NCBI RefSeq assembly: GCF_024166365.1
Contig: NC_064841.1
Span: forward strand, 46,631,680-46,695,679
Direction of reading: 5' to 3'
Length of the DNA: 64,000 nucleotides
DNA from: Elephas maximus
Lineage: Eukaryota
Below the pieces are notes generated by a model. The model did not search any database, was not told the DNA's origin, and worked only from the letters and a program-made list of their open reading frames with translations. The position numbers were made by a program, and so were the translations under genes. Positions 19,505 to 56,640 of the stretch are shown here, one piece after another. How positions within the stretch are numbered: position 1 is the first letter of the stretch; each line of letters begins with the position of its first letter.

Positions 19505-22500
19505 TTTTTAGTAATTTTTATTGTGCTTTAAGTGAAAGTTTACAAATCAAGTCAGTCTCCCACACAAAAACTTAAATACACCTTGCTACATACTCCAAGA
19601 TACTCTCCCCCTAATGAGACAGCCCGCTCTCTCCCTCTACTCTCTCTTTTCATGTCCATTTCACCAGCTTCTAACCCCCTCTACCCTCTTATCTCCCCTC
19701 CAGGCAGGAGATGCCGACATAGTCTCAAGTGTGCACTTGATCCAAGAACCTCACTCCTCACCAGCATCCCTCTCAAACCCATTGTCGAGTCCAATCCATG
19801 TCTGAAGAGTTGGCTTTGGGAACGGTTCCTGTCTTGCGCCAACAGAAGGTCTGGGGGCCATGACCACTGGGGTCCTTCTAGTCTCAGTCAGATCATTAAG
19901 TCTGGTCTTTTTATGAGAATTTGGGGTCTGCATCCCACTGTTCTCCTGCTGCCTCGGGGGTTCTCTGTTGTATTCCCTGTCAGGGCAGTCATCGGTTGTA
20001 GCCGGGCACCATCTAGTTCTTCTGGTTTCTGGCTGACGTAGTGTCTGGTTCATGTGGCCCTTTCTGTCTCTTGGGCTGGTAATTGCCTTGTGTCCTTGGT
20101 GTTCTTCATTCTCCTTTGATGCAGGTGGGTTGAGACCAATTGATGCATCTTAGATGGCTGGTTGCTAGCGTTTAAGAGCCCAGACACCACTCTTCAAAGT
20201 GGGATGCAAAATGTTTTCTTAATAGATTTTATTATGCCAGTTGACTTAGATGTCCCCTGAAACCATAGTCCCCAAACCTCTGCCCCTGCTACACTGGCCT
20301 TCGAAGCATTCAGTTTATTCAGGAAACTGCTTTTGGTTTAGTCCAGTTGTGCTGACCTCTCTCGTATTGTGTGTTGTCTTTCCCTTCACCTAAAGTACTT
20401 CTTATCTACTATCTAATTAGTGAATGTCCCTCTCCCACCCTCCCTTCCTCCACCTTCTCATAACCACAAAAGAATGTTTTCTTCTCAGTTTCAAGTATTT
20501 CTCAAGTTCTTATAATAGTGGTCTTATACAATGTTTGTTCTTTTGCAACTGACTAATTTCACTCAGTATAATGCCCTCCAGGTTCCTCCGTGTTATGAAA
20601 TGTTTCACAGATTCCTCAGTGTTCTTTATTGATGTGTAGTATTCCATTGTGTGAATATACCATAATTTAGTTATCCTTTCATCCATTGATGGGCATCTTG
20701 GTTGCTTTCATCTTTTTGCTGCTGTAAACAGTGCTGCAGTAAACATGGATGTGCATATATCTGTTCATGCAAAGGCTCTTATTTCTCTAGGATATATTCC
20801 GAGGAGTGGGATTGCTAGATCGTATGATAGTTCTATTTCTAGCTTTTTAAGGAAGTGCCAAATGGATTTCCAAAGTGGTTTTATCATTTTACATTCCCAC
20901 CAGCAGTGTAGAAGTGTTCCAATCTCTCCACAGCCTCTCCAACATTTATTTTGTGTTTTCGCATTAATGCCAGCCTTGTTGGAGTGAGATGAAATCTCAT
21001 TGTACTTTTGATCAGCATTTATCTAATGGGGAATGATCGTGAACATTTCCTCATGAATCTGTTAGCTCCCTGAATGTCTTCTTTAATGAAGTGTCTATTC
21101 ATATCTTTTGCCCATTTTTTAATTGGGATATTTGTATTTTTGTAGTTGAGTTTTTGCAGTTATCATGTAGGTTTTAGAGATCAGGCGCTGATGGGAAATG
21201 TCATAGCAAAAAATTTTTCCCAGTCTGTAGGTAGTCTTTTTATTGTTTCGGTGAAGTCTTTGGATGAGCATAGGTGTTCGATTTTTAGGAGCTCCCAGTT
21301 ATCTAGTTTTTCTTCTGCATTCTTAATAATGTTTTGTATACTGTTTATGCCATCCATATATTAGGGCTCCTAACATTGTCCCTATTTTTTCTTCCATGAG
21401 CTTTATTGTTTTAGATTTTGTATTTAGATCTTTGATCCATTTTGAGCTTGTTTTTGTGCATGGAGTGAGGTATGGGTCTTGTTTTATTTTTTTGCAGATG
21501 GATATCCAGTTATGCTAGCACCATTTGTTAAAAAGACTGCCTTTTCCCCATTTAACTGTTTGGGGCCTTTGTCAAATATCAGCTGCTCATATGTGGGTGG
21601 ATTTATGCCTGGATTCTCAATTCTGTTCCATTGGTCCATGTATCCATTGTTGTACCAGTACCAGGCTGTTTTGACTACTGTGGCGGTATAATAGGTTCTA
21701 AAATCAGGTAAAGTAAGGCCTCCCACTTTGTTCTTTTTTTTCAGTAATGCCGTATTTATCTGGGGCAGTTGGTTGATTTGGACCTTTAGGCCTTCTGTAT
21801 CATTGTTGAGTTTCTATCTAGATACTCTGTCCTTTACCAAGAGTAGTATGTTGAAGCCTCCTACTTTTATTTGTGGAACTGTCTCATTTCCCTTTTCACT
21901 GCTGTTATAGCTTGTTTTATGTATTTTGGAGCCTTGTTGTTGGGTATGTAGATATTTATTAAAGTTATGTCTTCTTGTTGGATTGTTCCTTTAATCATAT
22001 AATATCCTTTTTGTGGTGAATTTTGTCTTAGAAGTCTTTCATCTGAGATTAGTATTGTCAGTACTGCTGTTTTTTGGTTACTGTTTGCTTGATAAGTTTT
22101 TCTCCATCCTTTGATTTTTAATATATTTATGTCTTTGTGTCTAAGGTATGTCTCTTGTGGACAGCATATTGATGGTTTGTGTTTTTTTAAATCAGTTCTG
22201 CTGCTCTTGGTCTCTTTATGGGTGCATTTAAATTATTTACATTCAGTGTGATTATCGATAAAAAAATAGGTATGAGTTTATCGCTGTCCTATTGTGCCTT
22301 CTTTTTTTTTTGTGGTGCTGACTTTTTTTGTTCCTCTTTCTTCCCTGTACTGAAGTCCTTTTGTTTGTGGGTTTTCTTTTAGTTTCTTTCATTATTATAG
22401 ATTTTGTGTTTACTGAGTCTTAATGCTTTTCTTTTTACTTTGATGAATAGATTTGTTAGCTTTCTTTGTGATTTCCTTGAAATTAACCTTTATCTTCCTA

Positions 22501-29347: not shown

Positions 29348-32151
29348 TAAAAAAAATGAACTGTACAAAATGAAAACAAAACTTAAAGATTTGGAAAACT
29401 CTTTTGTATGAATTAAGGACAAATATCCTAAAATTTTCATCAAGGACATGGCTGCACAATCCTTTGTTAAAGAGATTAAGTCTGTGATTGATGGAGCTAA
29501 CTACCATTGCAGAATACCCATCAGCTTAGACTAAAGGGGACAGAGAAAGAACAAAAGGAGAGGATGCTATCTGCCTCTTGGAATTCTATAGGCAGGTAAC
29601 AGGCCAAAGGAGCAACATCTGCTGTCCTCCAAGAAAAGAAAAGGACCATCCCTGGAGCAGCTCAAAGATCAGCAGAATTGTTGGAAACAGCACAGGAGGC
29701 AGAGGGTCCTTGGTCTCAAAGAGTGGGGCCACAGCATCTGGGGTATCAAAAGGTAGAGTCATAGCCTCCTGGATTGCAGAGAGTCAGAACTTCAGCTTGG
29801 TTCTGGAGTGTGGGGCTGCCATTCAGTTTGGCCAACAGGACAGGGCTGCTGTCCAAAGCTGAGGAGGTGGAGCAGCCATGCCCAAGGGGCAGAAGAAAAA
29901 GGGGCCTGCTGGGGCAGAGGAGTTGGGGTCACCACTCAGATGGACTAGACTGGGTCTGCCCCAGTGGGCCTGGAAGGTCGAGCTGAAGCTCAGGGTTGAG
30001 GGGCCTCCACCCAGAATACAGAGAGCATGGCCAACACACAGAGTCTGAAGGGCAAGGCCATTGCCTAGGTGGTCTTAGAGGACAGATGATTATTTTCAAG
30101 CCTTGAGAGGTAAATTGTTCTGCTGTGTTTTAGAATTGTTTGGTTCCTGTCCCTCCAACCATCCTTCCAATTTCTTCCATTTGTAATGGGAATTTATACT
30201 TTGTGCCTGTTCCACCTTTGTATTTTGGAAGCAAATAACCTGTATTCTAGATTTCACAGGTTCTCAGATGAAGAGGAATTTTACTCCAGGATGGAATATG
30301 CCTAATGTCTCACTCATATTTAATTTAGATAATTCATAAGATGAGATTTTAGACTTGGAGTTGATTTAATACTTATTGGGATGACCTGGGGTGAATGGAT
30401 TTGGTACGTGGCAAGGACATGAATCCTGGGGGGGCCAAAAAAAATGTTTAAAATCGTAACCTCCATGCCTGTGGTTATAATGCCATTTGGGAATGATTTC
30501 TTTGTTATGTTAATAAGACAGGATTAGTATAGGGTGTGTCTTAAATCAGTCTCTTAAGATATAAAACAGGTTATACAAGTAAGCTAAAGAGGCTCAAAGA
30601 GAGAAGAAACCTCCCTTTAGAGCTGGCACCCTGTATTTGGACTTGGCCTCCTAAACTGTTAGAAAATAAATTTCTGTTTGTTAAAGGCACTCATTTGTGG
30701 TGTTTCTGTTATAAGCAGCACTAGATAACTAAGACACTGCCCTGATGCCTCAGTGTTTATCACCAACCAGAAAGCTCACTGGAACTTCAGTGTCCAGAAT
30801 TTTTATTAGGGTTCATTACGTAGGAACGATTAACTCATTGCCCATGTGCTTAAATGCAGTCTCCAGCTGCCCTCCCCAGAAATTGGGCAGATATCTCCAA
30901 GTGGGTCTTCTGAGTCCCACATCCTGAGCCACTTCATTAGCATAACAAAGACATTCCAACCACTCAGGAAATTCCAAAGATTTGAAGGTTACCTTCCAGG
31001 ATTTGAGGACAAAGACCAAATTCTTTGGGTCTTAAAGTAATTCTTCATCCTATAATCCTTAAGACAGTTAGTTTGAAGTCTTTGTCTAATAAGTTCAGTC
31101 TGAGTTTTCTTAAGGATGGTTTCTCAGTTTCTTTTTTTCTGTGAGTGGGCTGTACTTTTCTGTTTCTTTGTGTTTAATTTTTTGTTAAAAACTGAACATT
31201 TTGTATATTGTAATGTGGTAACTCTGAACATCAGATTCTCCCCCTCCCAGGGATTGGTGTTGCTACTTGTTGAGGGCAACAGTGGTTCGTTTATCTTTAG
31301 TGACTTACAAACTTTTTTTTTTTTAGAGATTATATTCCTTGCCATGTGTAGTCGCTGAAGTCTGTGTTGCATTATCTCTGCAGTCAGCCAGGCACCTGAC
31401 AGATTTCCTTTAATGCTTAGATCTAAGGGGGTGGGGGGGAAGGTGTTCTGTCTCTTTAAATTCTTTTGATAGCTGCCAGACAGGAACTGCTTCAGATTGA
31501 GGGGTTTGATATAATGTCCAGTCTCTGTTCTTATCTCAGTGAACCTCCAGCCAGATAAAAACACGTAACTCTTAAACTCCTAAAGGTTGACTATTTGGAG
31601 TTTATTGTATTAACTTTACCCTTCCCTGATTCTCCAGTTTTATATGATTGTCTTGGGGTCTTACCTGTGTGCTGGGCCACGACTACTTTGCAATAAACTA
31701 AATGAGTTTATGCACAACAGAAAAAATAAACCACAGCCCTTGAGTTTTGGGGGGCAGGGTCCTTATTGCCCACCCCGACACCAGCAAGCCAGACCAGGAA
31801 CATGGGCTACCATCCCCACAACTGCCTGCCATGGGGCTAGGGGCTGGGGGATGGTATCTATTATGGAAAATGTTGAAACTCACTGAAACTTCCTAGCCTC
31901 TTTCGTCAAGTACTTCCTTGGACACTGCAGGTGTTCAACTAGACTCCAGAATTCTGTAATAGTTGATTCTGGCAGTACCAGCCAGCTTAGTCGTTTTTTT
32001 TGGTGGAGGAACCAATTCCAGTAGCTTACTACTCTGCCATCTGCCATGACGTTACTCTCATATTTTCTAAAATCTGAAGAATTAATGAATTCTGAAACAT
32101 ACTTCCGGCCCCAGAAATTTCAGATAAGGGCTTGTAGAGTGGTATCGTTGT

Positions 32152-35045
32152 TGTTAGGTGTCGTTGAGTCGGTTCTGACTCATAGCAACCCCATGCACAA
32201 CAGAATGAAACACTGCCCGGTCCTGAGCCATCCTTAAAATTGTTGTTATGCTTGAGCCCGTTCTTCCTCTTCTCCGCTGACCCTGTACTTTGCCAAGCAT
32301 AATGTCCTTCTCCAGGGACTGATCCCTCCTAACAACTTGTCCAAAGTATGTAAGACAGTCTCGCCATCCTTCTAAGGAGCATTCTGGTTGTACTTCTTCT
32401 TCCAAGACAGATTTATTCATTCTTCTGGCAGTCCATGGTATATTCAGTATTCTTCGCCAACACCACAATTCGAAGGCATAAATTAATTTTTGGTCTTCCT
32501 TATTCGTTCTCCAGCTTTCACATGCATATGATGCGATTGAAAATACCATGGCTTGGGTCAGGCGCACCTTAGTCTTCAAGGTGACATCCTTGCTCTTGAA
32601 CACTTTAAAGAGGTCCTTTGCAGCAGATTTACCGTTCTTCTTCATATAGTCCAGCTTCTCGGATTATTTGTTCAGCATACAGATTGAATAGGTATGGTGA
32701 AAGAATACAACCCTGGCGCTCACCTTTCCGAACTTTAAACCAGTCAGTATCCCCTTGTTCTGTCTGAATAACTGCCTCTTGATCTATGTAAAGGTTCCTC
32801 ATGAGCACAATTAAGTGTTCTGGAATTCTCATTCTTTGCAATGTTATCCATAATTTGTTATGATCCGCACAGTTGAATGCCTTTGCATAGTCAGTAAAAC
32901 ACAGGTAAACATCCTTCTAGTATTCTCTGCTTTCAGCCAGGATCCATCTGACATCAGCAATGATATCCCTGGTTCCACATCCTCTTCTGAAACTGGCCTG
33001 AATTTCTGGCAGTTCCCTGTCGATATACTGCTGCAGCCGTTTTTGAATGATCTTCAGCAAAATTTTGCTTGCGTGTGATATTAATGATACCCTATAATTT
33101 CCACATTCGGTTGGATCCCCTTTCTTGGGAATAGGCATAAATATGGATCTCTTCCAGTCAGTTGGCCAGGAAGCCATCTTCCATATTTCATGGCATGGAC
33201 GAGTGAGCACCTCCAGTGCTGCATCTGTTTGTTGAAACATCTCAATTGATATTCCATCAATTCCTGGAGCCTTGCTTTTCACCAATGCCTTCAGAGCAGC
33301 TTGGACTTCTTCCTTCAGTACCATCGGTTCCTGATCATGTGCTACCTTTTGAAATGGTTGAACATCGACTAATTCTTTTTGGTATAATGACTTTGGGTAT
33401 TCCTTCCATCTTCTTTTGATGCTTCCTGCATCATTTAATATTTTCCCCATAGAATCCTTCACTATTGCAACTCGAGGCTTGAATTTCTTCTTCAGTTCTT
33501 TCAGCTTGAGAAACACCGAGTGTGTTCTTCCCTTTTGGTTTTCCATTTCCAGCTCTTTGCTCATGTCATTATAATACTTTGTCTTCTCCAGCCGCCCTTT
33601 GAAATCTTCTGTTTAGTTCTTTTACTTCATCAATTCTTCCTTTTGCTTTAGCTGCTCGATGTTCGAGAGCAAGTTTCAGAGTCTCCTCTGACATCCGTCT
33701 TGGTCTTTTCTTTCTTTCCTTTCTCTTCAGTGACCTCTTGCTTTCTTCATGTATGATGTCCTCAATGTCATTCCACAACGGGTCCGGCCTTCGGTCACCA
33801 GTGTTCAATGCATCAAATCTATTCTTGAGATGGTCTCTAAATTCAGGTGAGATATACTCAAGGTCATATTTTGGCTCTCGTGGTCTTGCTCTGATTTTCT
33901 TCAGTTTCAGCTTGAACTTGCATATGAGGAATTGATGGTCTGTTCCACTGTCAGCCCCTGGCCTCTTTCTGACTGGTGATATTGAGCTTTTCCATTGTCT
34001 CTTTCCACAGATGAAGTCAATTTGATTTCTGTGTGTTCCATCTGCCTAGGTCCATGTATATAGTCACCGTGTCTGTTGGTGAAAGAAGATATTTGCAATG
34101 AAGAAGTTGTTGGTCTTGCAAAATTCTATCGTTCGATCTCCAGCATTGTTTCTGTCACCAAGGCCATATTTTCCAACTACTGATCCTTCTTTGTTTCTAA
34201 CTTTCGCATTAAAATCGCCAGTAATTATCAATGCATCTTGATTGCATGTTTGATCAATTTCAGACTGTAGCAACTGATAAAAATCTTCTATTTATCTTTG
34301 GCATTAGTGGTTGGTGTATAAATTTGAGTAATAGTATTAACTGGTCTTCCATAAATTTGAATAATAGTATTAACTGGTCTTCCTTGTAGGCATATGGGTA
34401 TTATCCTATCACTGACAGCATTGTACTTCAGGATAGATCTTGAAATGTTCTTTTTGACGATAAATGCAACACCATTCCTCTTCGAGTTGTCATTCCCAGC
34501 ATAGTAGACTATATGATTGTCCGATTCAGAATGGCCAATACCAGTCCATTTCAGTTCACTAATGCCTAGGATATCGATGTTTATGCGTTCCATTTAATTT
34601 TTTGACGATTTCTAATTTTCCTAGATTCATACTTCATGTGTTCCAGGTTCTGATTATTAATGGATATTGCAGCTGTTTCTTCTCATTTTGAGTTGTGCCA
34701 CATCAGCAAATGAAGGTCCCGAAAGCTTTACTCCATCCACGTCATTAAGGTCGACTCTACTTTGAGGAGGCAGCTCTTCCCCAGTCATCTTTTGAGTGCC
34801 TTCCAACATGGGGGGCTCATCTTCCAACACTATATCAGACACTGTTCTGCTGCTATTCATAAGGTTTTCACTGGCTAATACTTTTCAGAAGGAGACTGCT
34901 GGGTCTTTTTTCCTAGTCTGTCTGAGTCTGGAAGCTCAGCTGTAACCTGTCGTCCATGGGTGACCCTCCTGGTATCTGAATACCAGTGGCATAGCTTCCA
35001 GCATCACAGCAACATGCAAGCCCCCACAGTACAACAAACTGAGAG
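32152..35045 (-). mobile_element. RTE/BovB-type LINE, near full length (antisense): EN-like N-terminus, RT, C-terminus and (TTG)n-flanked tail
   Basis: Minus ORFs 34288..34593, 34064..34273, 32917..33564 (…KAPGIDGISIEMFQQ…SWPTDWKRSIFMPIPKKGDPTECGNYR…) and 32154..32645 (…AFELWCWRRILNIPWTARRMNKSVLEEVQPECSLEG…GVAMSQNRLNDT). Confidence 0.85.
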
Positions 35046-44769: not shown

Positions 44770-47100
44770 GAACTTATATTCTAGTGGCAGAGAAAGAATA
44801 CAAATAAGAAGCTAAGGAAAAAAAGCAAGGAAGGGGCGAGAGTGTTGTGATTTTAAATAGGATGGCCAGGGAAGGCCTTACGGAGAAAGTGACACTTGAA
44901 TAATGACCTGAAGGAGATGAGTGAGGAAGCCATGGTAATCCCTGGGTGAAAACTGTAGCAGCCAAAGTGAACACCAAGTGTGAAGAGTTAGTAGTCTACC
45001 TGGTGGGTTTGAGGCATAGCAAGGAGGCTAGTATACCTGGAGTAGAGTGAGTCAGAACAATTATAGGAGCTAAGATTAGAGATATAATGGAGGATGGAGG
45101 GTGCAGATGATGTTAGGCCTTAGTAGATGATTGTGAGCACTTTGAGTTTTACTCTGAGTCAAATGGGAAGCCATTGGAGGGCTTTGAATAAAGGAGTAGT
45201 CTAATCATTTTTATTTTAGTAGGTTCTCTCTATACCTGGTGTAGACTTAAGAATAGAAATCAAATGACATACTGTATTGGGCAAATCTGCAAAAGACCTC
45301 TTTAAAGAGTTAAAAAGCAAAGATATCACTTTGAGGGCTAAGATACGCCTGACCCAAGCCATGGTTATTTTCATTCGCCTCATATGCATGCAAAAGCTGG
45401 ACAATGAATAAGGAGGACCAAAGAAGAATTGATGCCTTTGAATTATGGTGTTGGCTAAGAATATTGAATATACCATGGACTGCCAGAAGAACAAACGAAT
45501 CTGTTTTGGAAGAAGTACAGCCAGAATGTTCCTTAGAAGTGAGGATGGTGAGACTTTGTCTTATGTACTTTGGACATTGTTGTCAGGAGGGACCAGTCCC
45601 TGAGGAAGGATAGCATGCATGGTAGAGGATCAGTGAAAAAGAGGAAGACCCTCAGTGAGACGAACTGACACAGTGGCTACAATAGTGGGCTCAAGCATAG
45701 TAACGATTGTGAGGATGGCGCAGAACCAGGCAGTGCTTCGTTCTGTTGTACATAGGGTCGATATGAATTGGAACTGACTCTACGGCACCTAACAACAACA
45801 ACAACAACATGGGTGCAGTTGGTATGAGTTAGGGGACTACTGCAATAATTGAGACCAGAGATAATAGTGGCTTAGACCAGGATAGCAGCAGTGGAGGTGA
45901 TGAGAAGGAAACAGTATTTGTGATGAATCGAATATGGGGCTTGACAGCAAGAAAGGAATTACGAATAGCTTTTTTTAAGTTTAGTTTTTTGGCCTAATGG
46001 AGTTTCCACTTATTATAATGAGAAGTCACAAGAAGAGATTTTTATGGGATGTGGATATTAGGAGTTCACATTTGGACAAGGTAAGCTTGAAATGCCTACT
46101 GTATATCAAGTGGAGATGTAAAGTAGTTAAACCAAATATCAAGAGAAGTGCAGGTTGGAGATATAAATTTGGGGGTCATCAGAATATGTGGTAAAGCATG
46201 GACCTGGGCGAGATCATCAAAACTGTGAGTATAGATAGTGAAGAGGTGCAAGTACTGAGCCTAATTATCATGAGATGGGGAGATGAGGAGGAGCCAACAA
46301 GGGAGTGGAGAATGAGCAGCCAGAGAAGTATGAAGAAAATTAGGCAAGTATGATGTCCTGAAAGCCAAGTACAGAAAGTAAATCAAGGAGGAGAGAGTGG
46401 TCAGCAATGTCAAATGCTGCCGATAAGTAAGATAAGAACTGAAATTGACCATTAAATTTACCAAGAAGAAATAATTTATGACCTTGATAAGATCCTTTTC
46501 TTGAGGGTGTTACAGATGAAAGCCTAATTGGAGTTGGCTCAAGAGAGAATAAGGGGAAATTACAGAGTGTTAACAGCTTTTTGGAGTGTTTCTGTAGTAA
46601 ATGTAAGGAGATAAGTGGGAGTAGTGGCTAGAAGAAGTATTTTTTTGTTTTTGTTTTTTCAAGATGGGAAACTGAACAGATGTTATGTATTGATAGGATT
46701 GATTCAGGAGAGAGGATAGCACTAATACAGGAGAAAGTGGGGAGAATTGTTGAAGCAATGTCTGAGAGGGGGTGGTATCTAGTGAATAAATGCAAGTGTT
46801 GGCCTTACCTAAGAGTATGGACAATTTATCCATAGTAATAGAGCATATAGGGTAGTTGGGTGGTGGCAGCTTGTTAGAAGTTCCTTTCTAATTGCTTTAA
46901 CTTTGTCAATGCAGTAGGAAGCACAGTCATTAGCTGAGAGTGAGGATGGAGGAGGATTTGTAGGAGACCTGTGGGGATGGGAGGACGTGTGTAATAGTTC
47001 TCTAAGAGTGAAAAAGCAAATAGATGGGGAAATGTAGTGTGATTTCTGGGCTGCATTAAGGGTCCACTTGAGGTTAGTCATAAACTTAAAGTGAGAATTT
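44770..47100. repeat. Old interspersed repeat (MER/DNA-transposon-like; family not assigned), split by the RTE fragment at 45262-45805
   Basis: Long block with the typical …gagttcacatttggacaaggtaagcttgaaatgcctact…ggagatataaatttgggggtcatcag… organisation that I recall from an ancient mammalian repeat. Confidence 0.35.
45262..45805 (+). mobile_element. RTE/BovB-type LINE 3' fragment (sense) with (CAA)n tail
   Basis: ORF 45404..45613 (…AFELWCWLRILNIPWTARRTNESVLEEVQPECSLE…); tail …catagggtcgatatgaattggaactgactctacggcacctaacaacaacaac. Confidence 0.8.
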
Positions 47101-47850: not shown

Positions 47851-47904
47851 ATAGAGTGCTTTAAAATTGAGATTTTCATGGCATTGCAGTTATTGACCAC
47901 TGCT

Positions 47905-48233
47905 CGTCTGTCAGTTTGTTGTACTGTGGTGGCTTGTGTGTTGCTATGATGCTGGAAGATATGCCACTGGTATTTCAAATACAAGCAGGGTGACCCATGG
48001 TAGACAGATTGCAGCAGAGCTTCCAGACTAAGAGAGAGTGGGAAGAAGTACCTGGCCATCTATTTCTTAAAAAATTGGCCAGTGAAAACCTTATGAATAG
48101 CAGTGGAACACTGATCACAGTATCTGCGGCAGTGGGCTCAACTAGCAATGACTATGGGGATGGCGCGGGACTGGGTACACAGGGTCTCTGTGAGTTGGAA
48201 CCAACTTGACGGCACCTAACAGCAGCAGCAGCA
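47905..48233 (+). mobile_element. Internally deleted RTE derivative: about 220 bp of the RTE 5' end fused to about 110 bp of the RTE 3' tail
   Basis: 47905-48125 matches the 5' terminus of the RTE at 34850-35045 (…gtcagtttgttgtactgtggtgg…ccagtgaaaaccttatgaatagcag…); 48125-48233 matches the RTE tail (…gtgggctcaa…gtctctgtgagttggaaccaacttgacggcacctaacagcagcag). Confidence 0.65.
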
Positions 48234-49124
48234 GTTATTGAAAATGACAAGTTCTAAAGTTTGTCCATTGGATTGAATAGCTCAGGTAGGATAAAGGGCA
48301 GAATCCCTGGGGAGAGTAGGCCAAGAAACTGAGATGCTAAGTTATTGAAAGCATCATTTACTGTTAAAAATAATAACAGTAATAAGAAAGGAGAAAATGA
48401 CAGTAAGCTAGGATCTAAACATCTGCAAGGGGTGAGAGGGGAGTGATGACTGCAACAGTGAGGGAGGGGTAAAGATGGGTGAGTACGAGGACATGAGATT
48501 CAAAGCTGAGGCAGGGGATTTAGGGAGGAGGGATTTAGGGCTGGAAGTGATGATGTGGCGCAAGAAGGACATCTACCCTACCTTTGTCCTAGTGGTTTGA
48601 GCTCTGTGGGAGAGAAAGCTTCCATCACTTGAGAAGGATATAGTGGTAACCAGTATTATGAGGGAGACCTAGGGCTTATTTAGACTGTTAGAGCAAGAAC
48701 GTGAAGGAGAAATGTTTACAGAATAGGTTGAAGACAAAGGGGATTTGCTGATGTTTGACCGTGAATTCTGTTGAGGACCAGGGAATAGAGTAGAGGCACA
48801 GGTCCTCAGTTCACTGGTCCTAATAAAATATCATTATGTCAATATCAGCAATAGGACACTGTTTAGTTTTATGTTACATGTTATATCCTAAGTTCAAGAA
48901 TGATTAGATTTCAAAAAGAACATTTAATTTCAAAAAAAATTTAACTTTTCACTTTAGCCTGTATTGAGATTAGACCCTTTGGCAGGTATTTAATAATGAC
49001 AACTGAAAACAAACGAATGAACAAATTTAAAACACTCTCATTGTTAGCTGAGCTCTGTTAGTTTCATTCATTGTACTACTATGTAGACTAATACTTATGT
49101 TCAAAATTATCTCTCATACCACAG

Positions 49125-51189: not shown

Positions 51190-52060
51190 CCATTCTGTTG
51201 CTTGTCTTTTTGCTCTATATTTTTATGAACCAAAATTGTCAGTTTAATGTGGTAGAACTTCAGTTTTGTCCTTTAAGGGTAGTAGTACTATTTTTTTTGT
51301 GCGTGTGTGTGTGTAAACATATATGTAACAAAACATTTGCCATTTCAACATTTTTTACATATACAGTTCATTGACATTAATTATGTTCATCATGTTGTGC
51401 AACCATCACCACTATCTGTTCCCATATTTTTCCATTACCCTGAACAGAAGCTCAGTGTCATCTAAGCAATGCTCCCCTCCTTCCTACCCCTGGTAACCAC
51501 TGATAAACTCTGGCTTCTATATATTCACCCCATCTAGATATTTCACGTAAATGGTTTCACAGTATTTGTCCTTTTGTGACTGACTTGTTTCACTCAGCAT
51601 AATGTTTTAAAGGTTCATCCATGTTATAGCATGTATCAGGGCTTCATTTCTCTTTATGGCTGAGTATATTCCATTATATGTATATACCAGATTTTCTGTA
51701 CCATTCATCTGTTGATGGACATTTAGGTTGTTTCCACCTTTTGGCTACTGTGAAAAAATGTTGTAATGAACATGTGTAAATAAGTAAGTTTGTGTTCTGG
51801 TTTTCAGTCTTTTTAGTATATACCTAAGGGTGGAATTGCTGTGTTACGTGGTAATTCTGTTTCATTTTTTGAGAAAGTGCCAAACTGTTTTCCACAATGG
51901 CTGTGTCACTTTACATTTCCATTAGCATTGGATGAGAGTTTCAAGTTACTCCACATCCTCACAAACATGTTATTTTCATTTTGTTGGTCATAACCATCTT
52001 AGTGGGTATGAAGAGATATCTCATTGCAGTTTTGATTTACATTTCCCTAGTGACATTGGA
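51190..52060 (-). mobile_element. Older LINE-1 3' end (antisense), left part; continues at 55475-56640 after the RTE+SINE insertion
   Basis: Typical antisense L1 3'-end sequence (…tttcactcagcataatgtttt…cattcatctgttgatggacatttaggttg…ctcattgcagttttgatttacatttccctag…). Confidence 0.7.
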
Positions 52061-53202
52061 CTTGCTTTGATTTTCTTCAGTTTCAGCGTGAACTTGCATT
52101 TGAGCAATTGATGGTCTGTTCCACAGTCAGCCCCTGGCCTTGTTCTGACTGATGATATTGAGCTTTTCCACAGTCTCTTTCCACAGATGTAGTTGATTTG
52201 ATTCCTGTTTATTCTATCTGGCAAGGTCCACATGTATAGTCACCGTTTATGTTGGTGAAAAAAGGTGTTTGCAATGAAGCAGTCGTTGGTCTTGCAAAAT
52301 TCTATCATTTGATCTCTAGCATTTTTTCTGTCACCAAGGCCATATTTTCCCACTACCGATCCTTCTTTGTTTCCAACTTTTGCATTCAAATCACCGGTAA
52401 TTATCAATGCATCCCGATTGCATGGTCGATCAATTTTAGACTGTAGAAGCTGATAAAAATCCTCAATTTCTTCATCTTTGGCCTTAGTGGTTGCTGCATT
52501 AATTTCCATAATAGTCCTCTTAACTGGTCTTTCCTTTAGGTGTATGGATATTATCCTGTCACTGACAGCGTTATACTTCAGGATAGATCTTGAAATGTTC
52601 TTTTTGACAATGAATGCAGCACCATTCCTCTTCAAGTTGTTATTCCTGGCATAGTAGACTATATGATTGTCTGATGCAAAATGGCCAATGCCAGTCTATT
52701 TCAGCTCACTACTACCTAGGATGTTTATGCGTTGGATTTAATTTTTTGACAATTTCCAATTTTCCTAGATTCATCCTTTGTACATTCCAGGTTCCGATTA
52801 TTAATGCATGTTTGCAGCAGTTTCTTCTCATTTTGAATTGTGCCACATCAGCAAATGTTAAGGTCCCGAAAGCTTTACTCCATCCATGTCATTAAGGTCA
52901 GCTCTACTCTGAGGAAGCCGCTCCTCCTCAGTCGTCCTTTGAGTGCCCTCTAACCTGGGGGACTCATATTCTGTCACTATATTAGACAGTGTTCCACTGC
53001 GATTCATAAGGTTTTCACTGGCTAATTCTTTTCAAAAGTAGACTGCCGGGTCCTTCTTCCTAGTCTGTCTTTGTCTGGAAGCTCAGCTGAAACCTGTCCT
53101 CTATGGGGTGACCCTGCTGATGTTTGAATACCGGTGGCATAGCTTCCAGCATTACAGCAACACATAAGCCCCCACAGTACGACAGACTGACTGACAGATA
53201 GG
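52061..53202 (-). mobile_element. Inverted 5' segment of an RTE/BovB LINE (EN-like region, reaching the element's 5' terminus)
   Basis: Minus ORF 52240..52635 parallels 34064..34593. 52061-53202 is collinear with 33889-35045 of the reference RTE copy. Confidence 0.8.
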
Positions 53203-55301
53203 TTCAAGTTGAAACTGAAGAAAATCAGAGGAGTCCATGAGAGCCAAAATACAACCTTGAGTATATCCTGCCTGAATTTAGAGACCATCTCAAGAAAGAT
53301 CTGACATGTTGAACAGTAATGACAGAAAATGAGGTGAGCTGTGAAATGACATCAAGGACATCATACATGAAGAAAGCAAGAGGTCATTGAAAAGACAGGA
53401 AAGAAAGAAAAGACCAAAATGGATGTCAGAGGAGACTCTGAAACTTGCTCTCGAACGTCGAGCAGCTAAAGTAAAAGGAAGAAATGATGAAGTAAAAGAA
53501 CTGAAGATTTCAAAAGGTGGCTCGAGAAGACAAAGTAAAGTATTATAATGACATATGCAAAGAGCTGGAGATAGAAAACCAAAAGGGATGAACATGCTCA
53601 GCATTTCTCAAGCTGAAAGAACTGAAGAAAAAATTCAAGGCTCGAGTTGCAATAATGATGGATTCTATGGAGAAAATATTAAATGATGTAGGAAGCATCA
53701 AAAGAAGATGGAAGGAATGCACAGAGTCATTATACCAAAAAGAATTGGTCAACGTTCAACTGTTTTAAGAGGTAGCATATGATCAGAAACTGATGGTACT
53801 GAAGAAAGAAGTCCAAGCTGTTCTGAAGGCATTGGCAAAAAACAAGCCTCCAGGAATTGATGGAGTATCAAATGAGATGTTTCAACAAATGGATTCAGCA
53901 CTGGAAGTGCTCACTCATCTATGCCAAGAAATTTGGAAGACAGCTACCTGGTTAACCGACTGGAAGAGATCCGTATTTATGCCTGTTCCCAAGAAAGGTA
54001 ATCCAACTGAATGTGGAAATTATCGAACAATATCATTAATATCACATGCAAGCAAAATTTTGCTTAAGATCTTTCAAAAGTGGCTGCAGCAGTATATTGA
54101 CAGGGAAATGCCAGAAATTCAGGCTGGATTCAGAATAGGACTTGGAACCAGGTATATCATTGCTGATGTCAGATGGATCCTCGCTGAAAGCAGAGAATAT
54201 CAGAAAGGTGTTTAACCTGTGCCTTTTTTTGACTATGCAAAGGCATTCGACTGTGTGGATCATAACAAATTATGGATAACATTGTGAAGAATGGAAATTC
54301 TAGAACACTTTATTGTTCTCACGAGGAACCTATACATAGATTAAGAGGCAGTTCAGACAGAAGAGGATACCGCGTGGTTTAAAGTCTGGAAAGGTGTGTA
54401 TCAGGGTTGTATCCTTTCACCATACTTATTCAGTCTGTATGCTGAGCAAATAATCTGAGAAGCTGGACTTGATGAAGAAGAATGGGCATCAAGATTGGAG
54501 GAAGACTCATTTAAGAACCTGTGTTATGCAGATGACACAACCTTGCTTGCTGAAAGTGAAGAGGACTTGAAGCACTTACTGATGAAGATCAAAGACCACA
54601 GCCTTCAGTATAGATTACACCTCAACATAAAATAAAAATCCTCACAACTGGACCAATAAGCCACATCGTGATAAATGGAGAAAAGATTGAAGTTGTCAGG
54701 GATTTCATTTTACTTGGATCCACAGTCAACAGCCATGGAAGCAGGAGTCAAGAGATCAAAGATGCACTGCATTGGGCAAATCTGCTGCAAAGGACCTCTT
54801 CAAAGTGTTGAAAACTAAAAGATGTCACCTTGAAGACTAAAATGCACCTGACCCAAGCCATGGTATTTTCAATTGCGTCATATGCATGTGAAAGCTGGAC
54901 AATGAATAAGGAACACCAAAGAAGAATTGATGCCTTTGAATTGTAGTGTTGGTGACGAATATTGACTGTACCATGGACTGCCAAAAGAATGAACAAATCT
55001 GTCTTGGAAGAAGTACGACCAGAATGCTCCTTAGAAGCAAGGATGGGGAGACTGCATCTTACATACTTTGGTCATGTTGTCAGGAGGGATCAGTCTCTGG
55101 AGAAGAACATCACGCTTGGTAAAGTACAGGGTCAGCGGAAAAGAGGAAGACTTTCGATGAGATGGACTGACACAGTGGCTGCAACAGTGGGCTCAAGCGT
55201 AACAACGATTGTATGGATAGAACGGGACTGAGCAGTGTTTTGTTCTGTCGTACATAGGGTTGCTATGAGTTGGATCTGACTCGGTGGCATCTAACAACAA
55301 C
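53203..55301 (+). mobile_element. Direct 3' segment of the same RTE/BovB LINE (RT, C-terminus, (CAA)n-flanked tail)
   Basis: ORFs 53793..54215 (…KPPGIDGVSNEMFQQ…DWKRSVFMPVPKKGNPTECGNYR…) and 54962..55231. Starts at the position equivalent to ref ~33918 and ends …ggcatctaacaacaac. Confidence 0.85.
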
Positions 55302-55313
55302 AGTGACTTTGGG

Positions 55314-55462
55314 AGCTCTGCTGGCTCAGTGGTTAAGAGCTCGGCTGCTAACCAAGAGGAATCTACCAGTTACTCCTTGGAAGCCATACGGGGTAGTTCT
55401 ACTCTGTCCTATAGGGTTACTGTACGTCGGAATTGACTTGATGGCAGTGGGTTTTTGGTTTT
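55314..55462 (+). mobile_element. AfroSINE-like SINE immediately 3' of the RTE tail
   Basis: ggagctctgctggctcagtggttaagagctcggctgctaaccaagagg…ctatagggttactgtacgtcggaattgacttgatggcagtgggtttttggtttt. Confidence 0.8.
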
Positions 55463-55474
55463 AATGACATTGAG

Positions 55475-56640
55475 CATCTTTTTGTGTACTTGTTGGCCAT
55501 TTGCTTTTTGCTTATTTTCTTTTATGAAATGTCTGTTCAGGTCCTTGTCCATTTTTGGACTGGGTTGTCTGTTTGTTGAGTGTAGTTCTTTATATATTCT
55601 GAATAGTAAACCCTTATCAGATATATAATGCATTGCCATTGATTTGGTTCCAACTCACAGTGACCCTATAGGATAGAGTAGAACTGCCCCATATAGTTTC
55701 CAAGGAGTGGCTGGTGGATTCGAACTGCTGACCTTTTGGTCAGCAGCCGAGCTCTTAACCACTGTGCCACCAGGGCTCCGTCAGATATATAGTTCCCCCA
55801 CATTTTCTCTCAATCTGTAGGTTGTCTCTTCACCTTCTTGATAAAAGTCCATTGATGAAAAAACGTATTTAATTTTGATGGTCTCATTTATCTTTTCTGT
55901 GTTCTGTTAGTCACGCTCTTGGAGTCGTATCTAAAAATTCATTGTTAAAAACTGAGTCCCAAAGCATTACCCCTGTGTTTTCTTTTAAGAGTTCTATGGT
56001 TTTACATTTAGGTCTTTGGTCCATTTTAAGTTAATTTTCATATATGGTGTGACGTTTGGGTCTAGTTTCATTCTTTTGTATATGGCAATCCAGTTGTCCC
56101 AGCACCATGTATTAAAGAAATTATTTTTTCCCCCATTGAATGGACTTAGCACCCTTGTTGAAAATCAATTGACCATAGATGTACAAGTTTATTTCTGAAC
56201 TCTGAACTCTATTGGTCTATATGTCTATCATTATACCAGTAGTGTACTGTTGAGATTGAAAAGTGTGAGTCCTCCTCCTTTGTTTTTCTTTTTCAAGACT
56301 GCTTTGGCTATTTGGAGCCCCTTGCAGTTCCACATAAACTTGAGAATTGGCTTTTCCATTTCTGCAAAGAAGGGTGTAAGAATTTTGATAGGGATTGTGT
56401 TGAATCTGTAGAATACTATGGGTAGTATAGACATCTTGACAATATTAAGTCTTTTAGTCTGTGAACATGGAATGTACTTTCATTTATTCAGGTCTTCTTT
56501 AACCTCTTTCAGTAATGTTTTATAGTTTTCATTGTACAAGCATGTCGCTTCCTTGGTTAAATTTATTCCTAGATCCTTTATTTCTTTAGATGGTACTGTA
56601 AGTAGAATTTCTTTTTCAAAATGCTTGTTGCTGATGTAAT
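55475..56640 (-). mobile_element. Continuation of the older LINE-1 (antisense) right of the RTE+SINE insertion; itself interrupted by a SINE at 55632-55780
   Basis: …aatgacattgagcatctttttgtgtacttgttggccatttgc… then antisense ORF2-derived sequence to ~56640. Confidence 0.7.
55632..55780 (-). mobile_element. AfroSINE-like SINE (antisense) with the TSD tcagatatata
   Basis: Reverse complement of ggagccctggtggcacagtggttaagagctcggctgctgaccaaaaggtcagcagttcgaatccaccagcc…; TSD on both sides. Confidence 0.85.

What the first reader, a model, noticed from the sequence alone, without database searches (positions are those of the whole stretch)
52061..55301. RTE/BovB insertion with a 5' inversion and a ~30-bp junction duplication (twin-priming-like arrangement)
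The segment at 52061-53202 is the reverse complement of the RTE 5' region and reaches the same 5' terminus seen at ~35045 and ~47905. It is directly followed at 53203 by the same element in sense orientation, running to its (CAA)n tail at 55301. The inverted block ends, on the left, at the RTE position where the direct block begins. That point-of-break matches the comp(B..A)–C..3' layout described for L1 twin priming. About 30 nt (ctttgattttcttcagtttcagcgtgaacttgc at 52063-52097) appear in both arms, as its reverse complement at ~53203-53235. 5' inversions are well documented for L1 but rarely pointed out for RTE-clade elements.
Basis: partly seen in the sequence, partly recalled or inferred. 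Interest (0 to 1): 0.6.

Follow-up and report, generated by a model that had tools for sequence, protein, structure and literature searches.

The report
RTE LINE insertion with inverted 5' end
A single old, decayed copy of an RTE/BovB-type jumping gene sits inside an L1 remnant with its first ~1.16 kb flipped, a layout that matches the "twin priming" accident well known for L1 but apparently not reported for RTE elements in the papers I could search.

Summary

- **Inverted arm:** 52060-53200 (minus strand) is the 5' ~1,162 bp of an RTE element, holding the 5' UTR and the APE endonuclease. It reaches the same 5' end, within about 10 nt, as copies at 35042 and 47906.
- **Direct arm:** 53202-55301 (plus strand) is the same element from about position 1126 to its (CAA)n tail, holding the linker and the reverse transcriptase.
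- **Shared segment:** 36-37 nt are present in both arms (52057-52093 and 53202-53237, 32/37 identical).
- **Target-site duplication:** one 11-nt pair, AGTGACATTGG at 52049-52059 and AGTGACTTTGG at 55302-55312, flanks the whole composite. Neither arm has its own pair.
- **Microhomology:** the last 3 nt of the left copy (TGG) also match RTE.
- **Age of the arms:** both are equally diverged from a collinear in-window RTE (12.0% vs 11.1%, p=0.48).
- **Host sequence:** an antisense L1 ORF2 remnant.
- **Neighbour:** an AfroSINE already abutted the site. The right-hand duplication copy ends in its first base.

Best explanation is one twin-primed retrotransposition event (about 0.85). It is an ordinary mechanism in an unusual LINE clade, a single decayed copy, and of modest interest.

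The parts
52049..52059 (+). Left (5') target-site duplication AGTGACATTGG. Its last 3 nt (TGG, 52057-52059) also match the RTE sequence, giving microhomology at the internal priming site.
   Evidence: Sequence read. It matches 55302-55312 at 10 of 11 positions. P(<=1 mismatch in an 11-mer) = 8.1e-6. The local alignment to RTE already starts at 52057.
52060..53200 (-). Inverted arm: RTE element positions about 1-1162 (5' UTR plus APE endonuclease domain, ending just after the ...GADCGTDHQLL / KFKLKLKKI motif), on the minus strand.
   Evidence: 84.1% identity to the 5' part of the in-window RTE at 33881-35042. Pfam Exo_endo_phos E=3.6e-4 on its translation, which at 20.8 bits is below Pfam's curated cut-off of 24.5. 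P0037 aa 1-321 and P0001 aa 51-323 map here on the minus strand. The 5' terminus aligns with the copies at 35042 and 47906.
53201..53201 (.). One unassigned base (G) at the inversion junction. It is either the element's first base or an untemplated base. There is no microhomology between the two arms here.
   Evidence: RTE has A before GTTCAAG, and the other two copies differ at this position.
53202..55301 (+). Direct arm: RTE positions about 1126 to the 3' end (linker, reverse transcriptase, C-terminal region, 3' UTR), ending in the tail AACAACAAC (55293-55301).
   Evidence: 86.4% and 79.4% identity to the in-window RTE. Pfam RVT_1 E=1.2e-27. The plus-strand tblastn pieces of P0001 run to aa 1013 at 55288. 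A (CAA)n tail is the one given for RTE1_LA/RTE1_Pca in PMC6007223.
52057..52093 (-). Copy 1 of the RTE segment present in both arms (37 nt, sense GTTCACGCTGAAACTGAAGAAAATCAAAGCAAGTCCA).
   Evidence: the repeat finder I4, alignments.
53202..53237 (+). Copy 2 of the same RTE segment (36 nt, GTTCAAGTTGAAACTGAAGAAAATCAGAGGAGTCCA). It is 32/37 identical to copy 1. Both copies carry T where the reference copy has A (AGTCCA versus AGACCA).
55302..55312 (+). Right (3') target-site duplication AGTGACTTTGG. Its last G is the first base of the neighbouring AfroSINE.
   Evidence: The AfroSINE 5' start GGAGC... was defined by aligning 8 copies from the window.
55312..55462 (+). Pre-existing AfroSINE-type tRNA-derived SINE with a GGTTTTTGGTTTT tail, directly abutting the RTE insertion site. 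It is context, not part of the RTE event.
   Evidence: Matches at least 12 other copies in the window. Alignment. A (GGTTT)n tail is given for AFROSINE in PMC6007223.
55463..55472 (+). Third TSD-like decamer AATGACATTG. It is either the 3' TSD of the AfroSINE or simply the second of two tandem heptads native to L1.
   Evidence: A reconstruction joining 55302-55308 to 55463 onward aligns without a gap to the L1 paralogue at 20985-21100.
51300..52048 (-). Host sequence on the left: remnant of L1 ORF2 (C-terminal part), antisense to the plus strand. It continues at 55473 onward on the right.
   Evidence: The minus-strand translation of the reconstructed empty site matches human L1 ORF2p residues 1042-1266 (8sxt_A, E=8.9e-28) across the insertion point.

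Best explanation
This is one retrotransposition event of an afrotherian RTE-clade LINE (RTE1/BovB type, about 3.2 kb, one APE+RT ORF, (CAA)n tail), resolved by twin priming.

**Inferred sequence of steps.**
1. The RTE endonuclease nicked the bottom strand at CCCT|AGTGAC, inside an old antisense L1 ORF2 remnant and 10 nt upstream of an AfroSINE that was already there.
2. Reverse transcription primed on the (CAA)n tail produced the cDNA that is now the direct arm, down to element position about 1126.
3. The top strand was cut 11 nt downstream.
4. Its free 3' end (...ATTGG) annealed through TGG:CCA to the same RNA at about position 1162.
5. That end primed a second cDNA, which ran to the RNA's 5' end and is now the inverted arm.
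6. The first reverse transcriptase read 36-37 nt past the second priming site, so that stretch is present in both arms.
7. The two cDNA 3' ends were joined bluntly (0-1 nt) by host repair.

**What results.** The insert carries the full element content (3,206 non-redundant bp) with the 5' 1.16 kb flipped, bracketed by a single 11-nt TSD. The copy is now decayed, with many stops and frameshifts, and has no evident function.

**Shown versus inferred.** Shown: the anatomy, the single TSD, the microhomology, the equal divergence of the arms and the nested L1 context. Inferred: the order of enzymatic steps.
For: 1. **Arm mapping.** Opposite-strand, collinear mapping of the two arms, with a 36-37 nt overlap, onto an in-window RTE. 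That reference copy is itself collinear with full-length APE+RT proteins. The two independent proteins give the same mapping.
2. **Topology.** The flank-proximal end of the inverted arm is its 3'-most element position, and the element's 5' terminus lies at the internal junction. This is the order twin priming predicts (model as summarised in PMC2912911).
3. **Single TSD.** An 11-nt TSD, 10/11 identical, brackets the composite. This is within the 10-12 bp peak reported for RTE-clade elements (PMC4245944). It starts with A, as reported for RTE1_LA (PMC6007223).
4. **Microhomology.** 3 nt (TGG) are shared by the target end and RTE at the start of the inverted arm.
5. **Same RNA.** The breakpoints of the two arms are only 37 nt apart. 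If two unrelated RNAs or events were involved, the chance of that is about 2.5% (80/3200, my estimate).
6. **Same age.** Substitution divergence from the reference is 12.05% versus 11.06%, p=0.48. The duplicated segments differ by 5/37, in line with that age. Both carry the same T variant.
7. **No tail on the inverted arm.** It has no 3' tail of its own, so it cannot be a normal independent insertion.
8. **Empty site.** Removing the insert restores a continuous L1 ORF2 remnant.
9. **Precedent for the duplication.** Small duplications, deletions or insertions at inversion junctions are described as typical of L1 5' inversions (PMC5668948).
Against: - There is only one locus, and no orthologous empty or intermediate site could be examined.
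- Nothing is known experimentally about second-strand priming by RTE reverse transcriptase.
- In cell-culture assays 5' inversions were almost confined to human L1 in human cells (PMC4245944).
- There is no microhomology at the internal junction (0-1 nt).
- A 3-nt microhomology at the 5' junction has about a 1/64 chance on its own.
- The divergence test uses a single reference copy. It cannot exclude two events of similar age from the same subfamily.
Confidence: 0.85

Rival explanations
1. Post-insertional inversion. A normal full-length sense RTE inserted, and its first ~1,160 bp were inverted later by a DNA rearrangement with staggered breaks, which also created the 37-nt inverted duplication.
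For: It would produce the same content and the same outer TSDs. Inversions with short inverted duplications at their breakpoints are known products of replication or repair errors (general knowledge).
Against: One inversion breakpoint would have to fall within 0-3 nt of the element/TSD boundary at 52059/52060. For a random break inside or around a 3.2-kb element the chance is below about 1e-3 (my estimate). The TGG microhomology would be unexplained. Twin priming yields this exact geometry directly.
Confidence: 0.07
2. Two separate retrotransposition products at one hot spot. One is a 5'-truncated sense RTE (53202-55301). The other is an antisense RTE fragment, or a second RNA molecule used as template by the top-strand primer ('trans' twin priming).
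For: The site was used by the RTE machinery at least twice, once for the AfroSINE and once for the RTE. The divergence test has limited power because there is one reference.
Against: The inverted arm has no 3' tail and no TSD of its own. Its left neighbour is L1 plus the shared TSD, not the rest of an antisense RTE. The direct arm has no TSD of its own: the GACAGATAG flank does not match AGTGACTTTGG. The arm breakpoints coincide within 37 nt (about 2.5% by chance). The arms are equally diverged and share a variant.
Confidence: 0.06
3. Assembly artefact: a mis-oriented contig piece inside one RTE copy.
For: Repeats are common sites of mis-assembly (general knowledge).
Against: The segment present in both arms has diverged (32/37), so it is not an identical overlap artefact. 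The left junction abuts unique L1 sequence with a matching TSD, and both junctions are clean to the base.
Confidence: 0.02

Closest known systems
[quoted passage not shown]
   Same: - The layout is comp(B..A)-C..3' tail.
- One TSD pair flanks the composite.
- There is microhomology between the target end and the element at the start of the inverted arm.
- There is a small duplication at the inversion point.
- The TSD is 10 nt or longer, as noted for inverted L1s (PMC4245944).
   Different: - The element belongs to the RTE clade. It has a single APE+RT ORF, is 3.2 kb long, and has a (CAA)n tail with stringent 3'-end recognition rather than a poly(A) tail.
- The inverted arm reaches the element's 5' terminus, so no element sequence is lost.
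- There is no microhomology at the internal junction.
- In the held literature I found no report of twin priming for RTE/BovB.
RTE1_LA / RTE1_Pca (afrotherian RTE-clade, BovB-related LINEs) and their partner AfroSINEs
   Same: - The length is about 3.2 kb and the ORF encodes APE plus RT.
- The tail is (CAA)n and the TSD starts with A (PMC6007223).
- The 3' end resembles the AfroSINE 3' region (I3, 55254-55289 versus 55634-55669).
- The closest named protein is from Loxodonta africana, at 77% identity.
   Different: - Ordinary copies are collinear and usually 5'-truncated. This one has its 5' third inverted.
- I had no Repbase/Dfam consensus, so the subfamily is not assigned.
Snap-back or template-switch hairpin insertions (inverted duplications of the adjacent cDNA)
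   Same: There are two arms in opposite orientation within one insert.
   Different: Here the inverted arm holds the upstream part of the element, not a mirror copy of the direct arm. Only 36-37 nt are shared. The hairpin model is therefore rejected.

Membership tests
RTE-clade LINE (afrotherian RTE1/BovB type) | Single long ORF with an N-terminal APE-type endonuclease followed by reverse transcriptase | tested here: met
   Pfam Exo_endo_phos on the inverted arm (E=3.6e-4, 20.8 bits, below the curated cut-off of 24.5, decayed copy) and RVT_1 on the direct arm (E=1.2e-27). The conceptual ORF covers 99% of about 1,000-aa APE+RT proteins (P0001 56% identity, E=0).
RTE-clade LINE (afrotherian RTE1/BovB type) | Compact full length of about 3.2 kb | tested here: met
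   3,206 non-redundant bp after removing the duplicated segment. Homologous full-length proteins sit on contigs of 3.0-3.9 kb.
RTE-clade LINE (afrotherian RTE1/BovB type) | 3' tail is a short tandem repeat, (CAA)n for RTE1_LA/RTE1_Pca, not poly(A) | tested here: met
   AACAACAAC at 55293-55301. The other copies end in (CAA)n at 45799 and 32147. The family table is in PMC6007223.
RTE-clade LINE (afrotherian RTE1/BovB type) | 3' end shared with a partner SINE (AfroSINE) | tested here: met
   The RTE 3' end at 55254-55289 is 75% complementary to the 3' part of the inverted AfroSINE at 55634-55669 (I3).
RTE-clade LINE (afrotherian RTE1/BovB type) | TSD of about 10-12 bp, starting with A for (CAA)n-tailed elements | tested here: met
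   An 11-nt TSD, AGTGACATTGG / AGTGACTTTGG. Expectations come from PMC4245944 and PMC6007223.
RTE-clade LINE (afrotherian RTE1/BovB type) | Phylogenetic placement of the RT within the RTE/BovB clade | tested here: inconclusive
   No tree was built. The best named hits come from BovB-bearing taxa: Loxodonta 77%, squamates, ruminants and a mite, with names such as 'craniofacial development protein 2' and 'endonuclease-reverse transcriptase'. This is consistent but is not a clade test.
Twin-primed (5'-inverted) LINE insertion | The 5' portion is inverted relative to a 3' portion that carries the tail. The inverted portion comes from element positions directly upstream of the direct portion. | tested here: met
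   Inverted arm about 1-1162 and direct arm about 1126 to the end.
Twin-primed (5'-inverted) LINE insertion | The flank-proximal end of the inverted arm is its 3'-most element position (comp(B..A) order) | tested here: met
   Position 52060 corresponds to RTE about 1162, and 53200 corresponds to the RTE 5' terminus.
Twin-primed (5'-inverted) LINE insertion | One TSD pair around the whole composite and none around the single arms | tested here: met
   10/11 match between 52049-52059 and 55302-55312, chance 8e-6. No repeat flanks either arm separately.
Twin-primed (5'-inverted) LINE insertion | Microhomology between the target 3' overhang and the element at the inverted arm's start | tested here: met
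   TGG at 52057-52059 belongs both to the TSD and to the RTE alignment. It is only 3 nt, so the support is weak.
Twin-primed (5'-inverted) LINE insertion | Small deletion, duplication or insertion at the inversion point. Microhomology there is common but not obligatory. | tested here: met
   A 36-37 nt duplication, 0-1 nt of microhomology, and one unassigned G at 53201. The feature is described in PMC5668948 and PMC2912911.
Twin-primed (5'-inverted) LINE insertion | Both arms arise in one event: same age, same source, and an empty pre-insertion allele | tested here: inconclusive
   Divergence is equal (12.05% versus 11.06%, p=0.48) and the arms share a variant. The orthologous empty site cannot be tested with these tools. 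A paralogous check restores L1 continuity.

The most novel reading that the evidence does not exclude
RTE-clade LINEs also undergo twin priming. They lack a poly(A) tail and recognise their own 3' end stringently. Even so, their reverse transcriptase could start on an internal RNA site from a target 3' overhang with only about 3 nt of pairing and run more than 1.1 kb to the RNA's 5' end. That would make 5' inversion a general consequence of LINEs with TSDs of 10 nt or more in mammalian cells, rather than something peculiar to L1. A side reading concerns the AfroSINE and the RTE. Both entered at the same T|A(A/G)TGAC motif, either the same site or a tandem copy 7 nt away, which hints at sequence-level choice of nick site by the RTE endonuclease.
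Probability: 0.8. Interest if true: 0.4.

Novelty: new member of a known kind. Interest (0 to 1): 0.33.

Why it matters
Work on LINE 5'-end joining reports that 5' inversions depend on both the LINE species and the host. In culture they were essentially restricted to human L1, with the proposal that a long (10 nt or more) 3' overhang is needed to prime the second reverse transcription (PMC4245944). A clean natural example in an RTE element with an 11-nt TSD fits that proposal and extends the phenomenon to a second LINE clade. It also shows what annotators will see. Such a copy is split into two oppositely oriented 'RTE fragments', which inflates copy counts and hides a full-length insertion. 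As a single decayed copy it has no functional consequence and does not open a new question by itself. A genome-wide count in afrotherian or ruminant genomes would be the useful follow-up.

Tried and rejected
- **Snap-back/hairpin model.** Rejected because the arms are not mirror copies. Only 36-37 nt are shared.
- **Independent antisense insertion for the inverted arm.** Rejected because it has no tail and no TSD of its own, and L1 lies directly to its left.
- **Cap-derived extra base at the junction.** The unassigned base would be C, not G, on the plus strand, so it is not supported (inference).
- **Pfam on plus-strand frames of the flanks.** Nothing found, because the L1 is antisense. The minus-strand translation then matched solved L1 ORF2p.
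- **Rfam scan of the whole window.** No family reached its gathering score.
- **Literature searches linking twin priming or 5' inversion to RTE/BovB.** Only incidental co-mentions. The original twin-priming paper and Ichiyanagi and Okada 2008 are not held.
- **'The same site was hit twice with identical TSDs'.** I first read the three decamers this way and have downgraded it. The ancestral L1 carries two tandem heptads, and joining 55302-55308 to 55463 onward aligns without a gap to an L1 paralogue. The third copy may therefore be native L1, with the AfroSINE having a TSD of about 0-1 nt plus 3 extra nt. This is unresolved.
- **Survey of further RTE copies for inversions.** Not done, because no afrotherian genome collection is available in these tools.
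Full report
**What is there**

The region 52049-55312 holds one RTE-clade LINE whose 5' third is inverted. I compared it with the rest of the window and with a near-full-length RTE on the minus strand at 32147-35042.
- 52057-53190 aligns to reference 33881-35042 (84.1%, 1,280 bits).
- 53202-54485 aligns to reference 33917-32632 in the opposite relative orientation (86.4%, 1,527 bits).
- 54775-55301 aligns to 32633-32147 (79.4%). The reference has a deletion of about 290 bp between these blocks.

In element coordinates the minus-strand arm is about 1-1162 and the plus-strand arm is about 1126 to the end. The reference copy is collinear with full-length proteins, so it is a valid yardstick.

**Identity of the element**

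- The inverted arm translates to an APE endonuclease: Pfam Exo_endo_phos, E=3.6e-4, which at 20.8 bits is below Pfam's curated cut-off of 24.5. It ends in ...GADCGTDHQLLKCKFTLKLKKI.
- The direct arm translates to a reverse transcriptase: RVT_1, E=1.2e-27, with a YADD motif.
- A frameshift-corrected conceptual ORF finds about 1,000-aa APE+RT proteins over 99% of its length. P0001 scores 56% identity at E=0, and many of these proteins sit on contigs of 3.0-3.9 kb.
- The closest named sequence is a Loxodonta africana 'craniofacial development protein 2-like' protein (P0037, 77% identity).
- Other named hits come from squamates, ruminants and a mite.
- The non-redundant length is 3,206 bp.
- The tail is (CAA)3. 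The literature lists (CAA)n, with a TSD starting in A, for elephant RTE1_LA and hyrax RTE1_Pca. It lists (GGTTT)n for AFROSINE (PMC6007223).
- The window holds at least 12 AfroSINE-like copies.
- The RTE 3' end resembles the AfroSINE 3' region (I3).

The host genome is therefore very probably afrotherian. I could not identify the species.

**Independent mapping of the two arms**

Using tblastn:
- P0037 aa 1-321 lies on the minus strand (53007->52051). On the plus strand tblastn reports aa 284-443 from 53145 (38% identity) and aa 340-502 from 53297.
- P0001 aa 51-323 lies on the minus strand. Its plus-strand pieces are aa 290-793 from 53145 and aa 794-1013 ending at 55288.
- The pieces that start at 53145 begin inside the inverted arm. 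That start is spurious low-similarity extension. The true start of the direct arm is 53202, from the DNA alignments.

The break falls just after the endonuclease domain. KFKLKLKKI is encoded in both arms.

**Junctions, read to the base**

- *Left junction.* The sequence is ...CATTTCCCT|AGTGACATTGG|ACTTGCTTTG.... The 11-mer at 52049-52059 recurs directly after the tail at 55302-55312 as AGTGACTTTGG, a 10/11 match. The chance of at most one mismatch at a fixed position is 8.1e-6. Even allowing about 100 boundary combinations it stays below 1e-3.
- *TSD length.* 11 nt lies within the 10-12 bp peak reported for RTE-clade elements (PMC4245944).
- *Microhomology.* The last three bases of the left copy (TGG) also align to RTE (reference TGGTCTTGC, here TGGACTTGC).
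- *Internal junction.* The sequence is ...CTGACAGATA-G-GTTCAAG.... The inverted arm ends at the element's 5' terminus. In sense orientation the three copies begin as follows:
  - this copy: C-TATCTGTCAG...
  - copy at 35042: TATCTCTCAG...
  - copy at 47906: (CCACTGCTCG)TCTGTCAG...
- *Unassigned base.* One G (53201) cannot be assigned. There is no microhomology between the arms at this junction.
- *Shared segment.* It is 52057-52093 (37 nt) versus 53202-53237 (36 nt), 32/37 identical. Both copies carry T where the reference has A (AGTCCA versus AGACCA).

**Tests of the rivals**

- *Separate TSDs.* Neither arm has its own TSD, and the inverted arm has no tail.
- *Divergence.* Substitutions relative to the reference are 135/1120 (12.05%) for the inverted arm and 140/1266 (11.06%) for the first 1.3 kb of the direct arm, or 201/1747 for the whole direct arm. 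Fisher p is 0.48 and 0.68.
- *Breakpoint coincidence.* The breakpoints of the two arms lie 37 nt apart in a 3.2-kb element. For unrelated events the chance is about 2.5% (my estimate).
- *Later inversion.* A later DNA inversion would need one breakpoint within 0-3 nt of the element/TSD boundary.
- *Assembly artefact.* This is unlikely because the duplicated stretch has diverged.
- *Hairpin product.* This is excluded because the inverted arm is the upstream part of the element, not a mirror of the direct arm.

**Context**

The insert lies in an L1 ORF2 remnant that is antisense to the plus strand. The minus-strand translation of the reconstructed empty site matches human L1 ORF2p residues 1042-1266 (8sxt_A, E=8.9e-28), running across the insertion point.

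Directly after the right TSD copy comes an AfroSINE (55312-55462). Its first G is the last base of the RTE TSD, so the AfroSINE was there first and the RTE landed at its 5' edge.

After the AfroSINE comes AATGACATTG (55463-55472), a third look-alike of the TSD. Two readings remain open.
- *Reading (a).* It is the AfroSINE's own 10-nt TSD. The RTE then reused the same nick site, and a 7-nt slippage deletion or two substitutions account for the details.
- *Reading (b).* It is the second of two tandem heptads native to L1 (AATGAC-T-AATGAY). Joining 55302-55308 to 55463 onward aligns without a gap to the L1 paralogue at 20985-21100, whereas a single-copy reconstruction needs a 7-nt gap. In this case the AfroSINE has a TSD of about 0-1 nt plus 3 extra nt.

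Under either reading, both elements were nicked at T|A(A/G)TGAC, and the RTE's 11-nt TSD stands.

**Mechanism**

The anatomy fits twin priming as defined for L1 (PMC2912911; PMC5668948).
1. First-strand priming on the tail gives the direct arm.
2. The top-strand 3' end, released by the second nick 11 nt downstream, pairs through TGG:CCA with the same RNA at about position 1162.
3. It primes a second cDNA that runs to the RNA's 5' end.
4. The first reverse transcriptase overshoots the second priming site by 36-37 nt, which produces the duplication.
5. Host repair joins the two cDNA ends.

These steps are inferred. The structure they explain is shown directly.

**Novelty and score**

In the held library I found no paper reporting twin priming or 5' inversion for RTE/BovB. 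One experimental study states that 5' inversions depend on LINE species and host and were seen almost only with human L1 (PMC4245944). That study relates them to TSDs of 10-20 bp, which an RTE with an 11-nt TSD satisfies.

So this is a new member of a known kind: a familiar accident of target-primed reverse transcription, seen in a second LINE clade. It is one decayed copy with no apparent function. Interest is modest (0.33). The worthwhile follow-up is a genome-wide count.

Noticed in passing
window 47886-48241: A 334-bp internally deleted 'mini-RTE' at 47897-48230. It joins about 217 bp of the RTE 5' end directly to about 110 bp of the RTE 3' end and has a (CAG)n tail instead of (CAA)n. It is flanked by a TSD (GCAG)TTATTGA at 47886-47896 and 48231-48241. 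Its 5' end extends about 6-10 nt further (CCACTGCTCG) than the other copies. It may be a non-autonomous deletion derivative that was itself mobilised.
   Followed up: partly
window 55302-55312, 55312-55462, 55463-55472: The RTE and an AfroSINE entered at the same T|A(A/G)TGAC motif, either the same nick site or a tandem heptad 7 nt away. This leaves three similar decamers in a row. It suggests sequence-level nick-site preference of the RTE endonuclease. It could not be resolved without an empty allele.
   Followed up: partly
window 55312-55462 (+) and 55631-55779 (-): Two AfroSINE copies in opposite orientation about 180-370 bp apart form a long imperfect inverted repeat (repeat finder I1 and I2: 91 nt at 79% and 48 nt at 90%). 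These are two independent SINE insertions in the same L1 remnant. The second has its own TSD, TATATATCTGA.
   Followed up: partly
window 32147-35042 (-): A near-full-length collinear RTE copy with an internal deletion of about 290 bp (element about 2390-2680) and a (CAA)n tail. I saw no convincing TSD at its ends. It served as the in-window reference.
   Followed up: partly
window 45255-45799 (+): An ordinary 5'-truncated RTE 3' fragment (about 550 bp) ending in (CAA)6. It is the usual fate of RTE insertions, for comparison.
   Followed up: no
protein hits (P0030, P0071): RTE/BovB-type reverse transcriptases are deposited under bacterial names (Staphylococcus aureus, Sinisalibacter lacisalsi) on contigs of 2.3-2.7 kb. 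This is most likely host-DNA contamination in bacterial assemblies, not bacterial genes.
   Followed up: no
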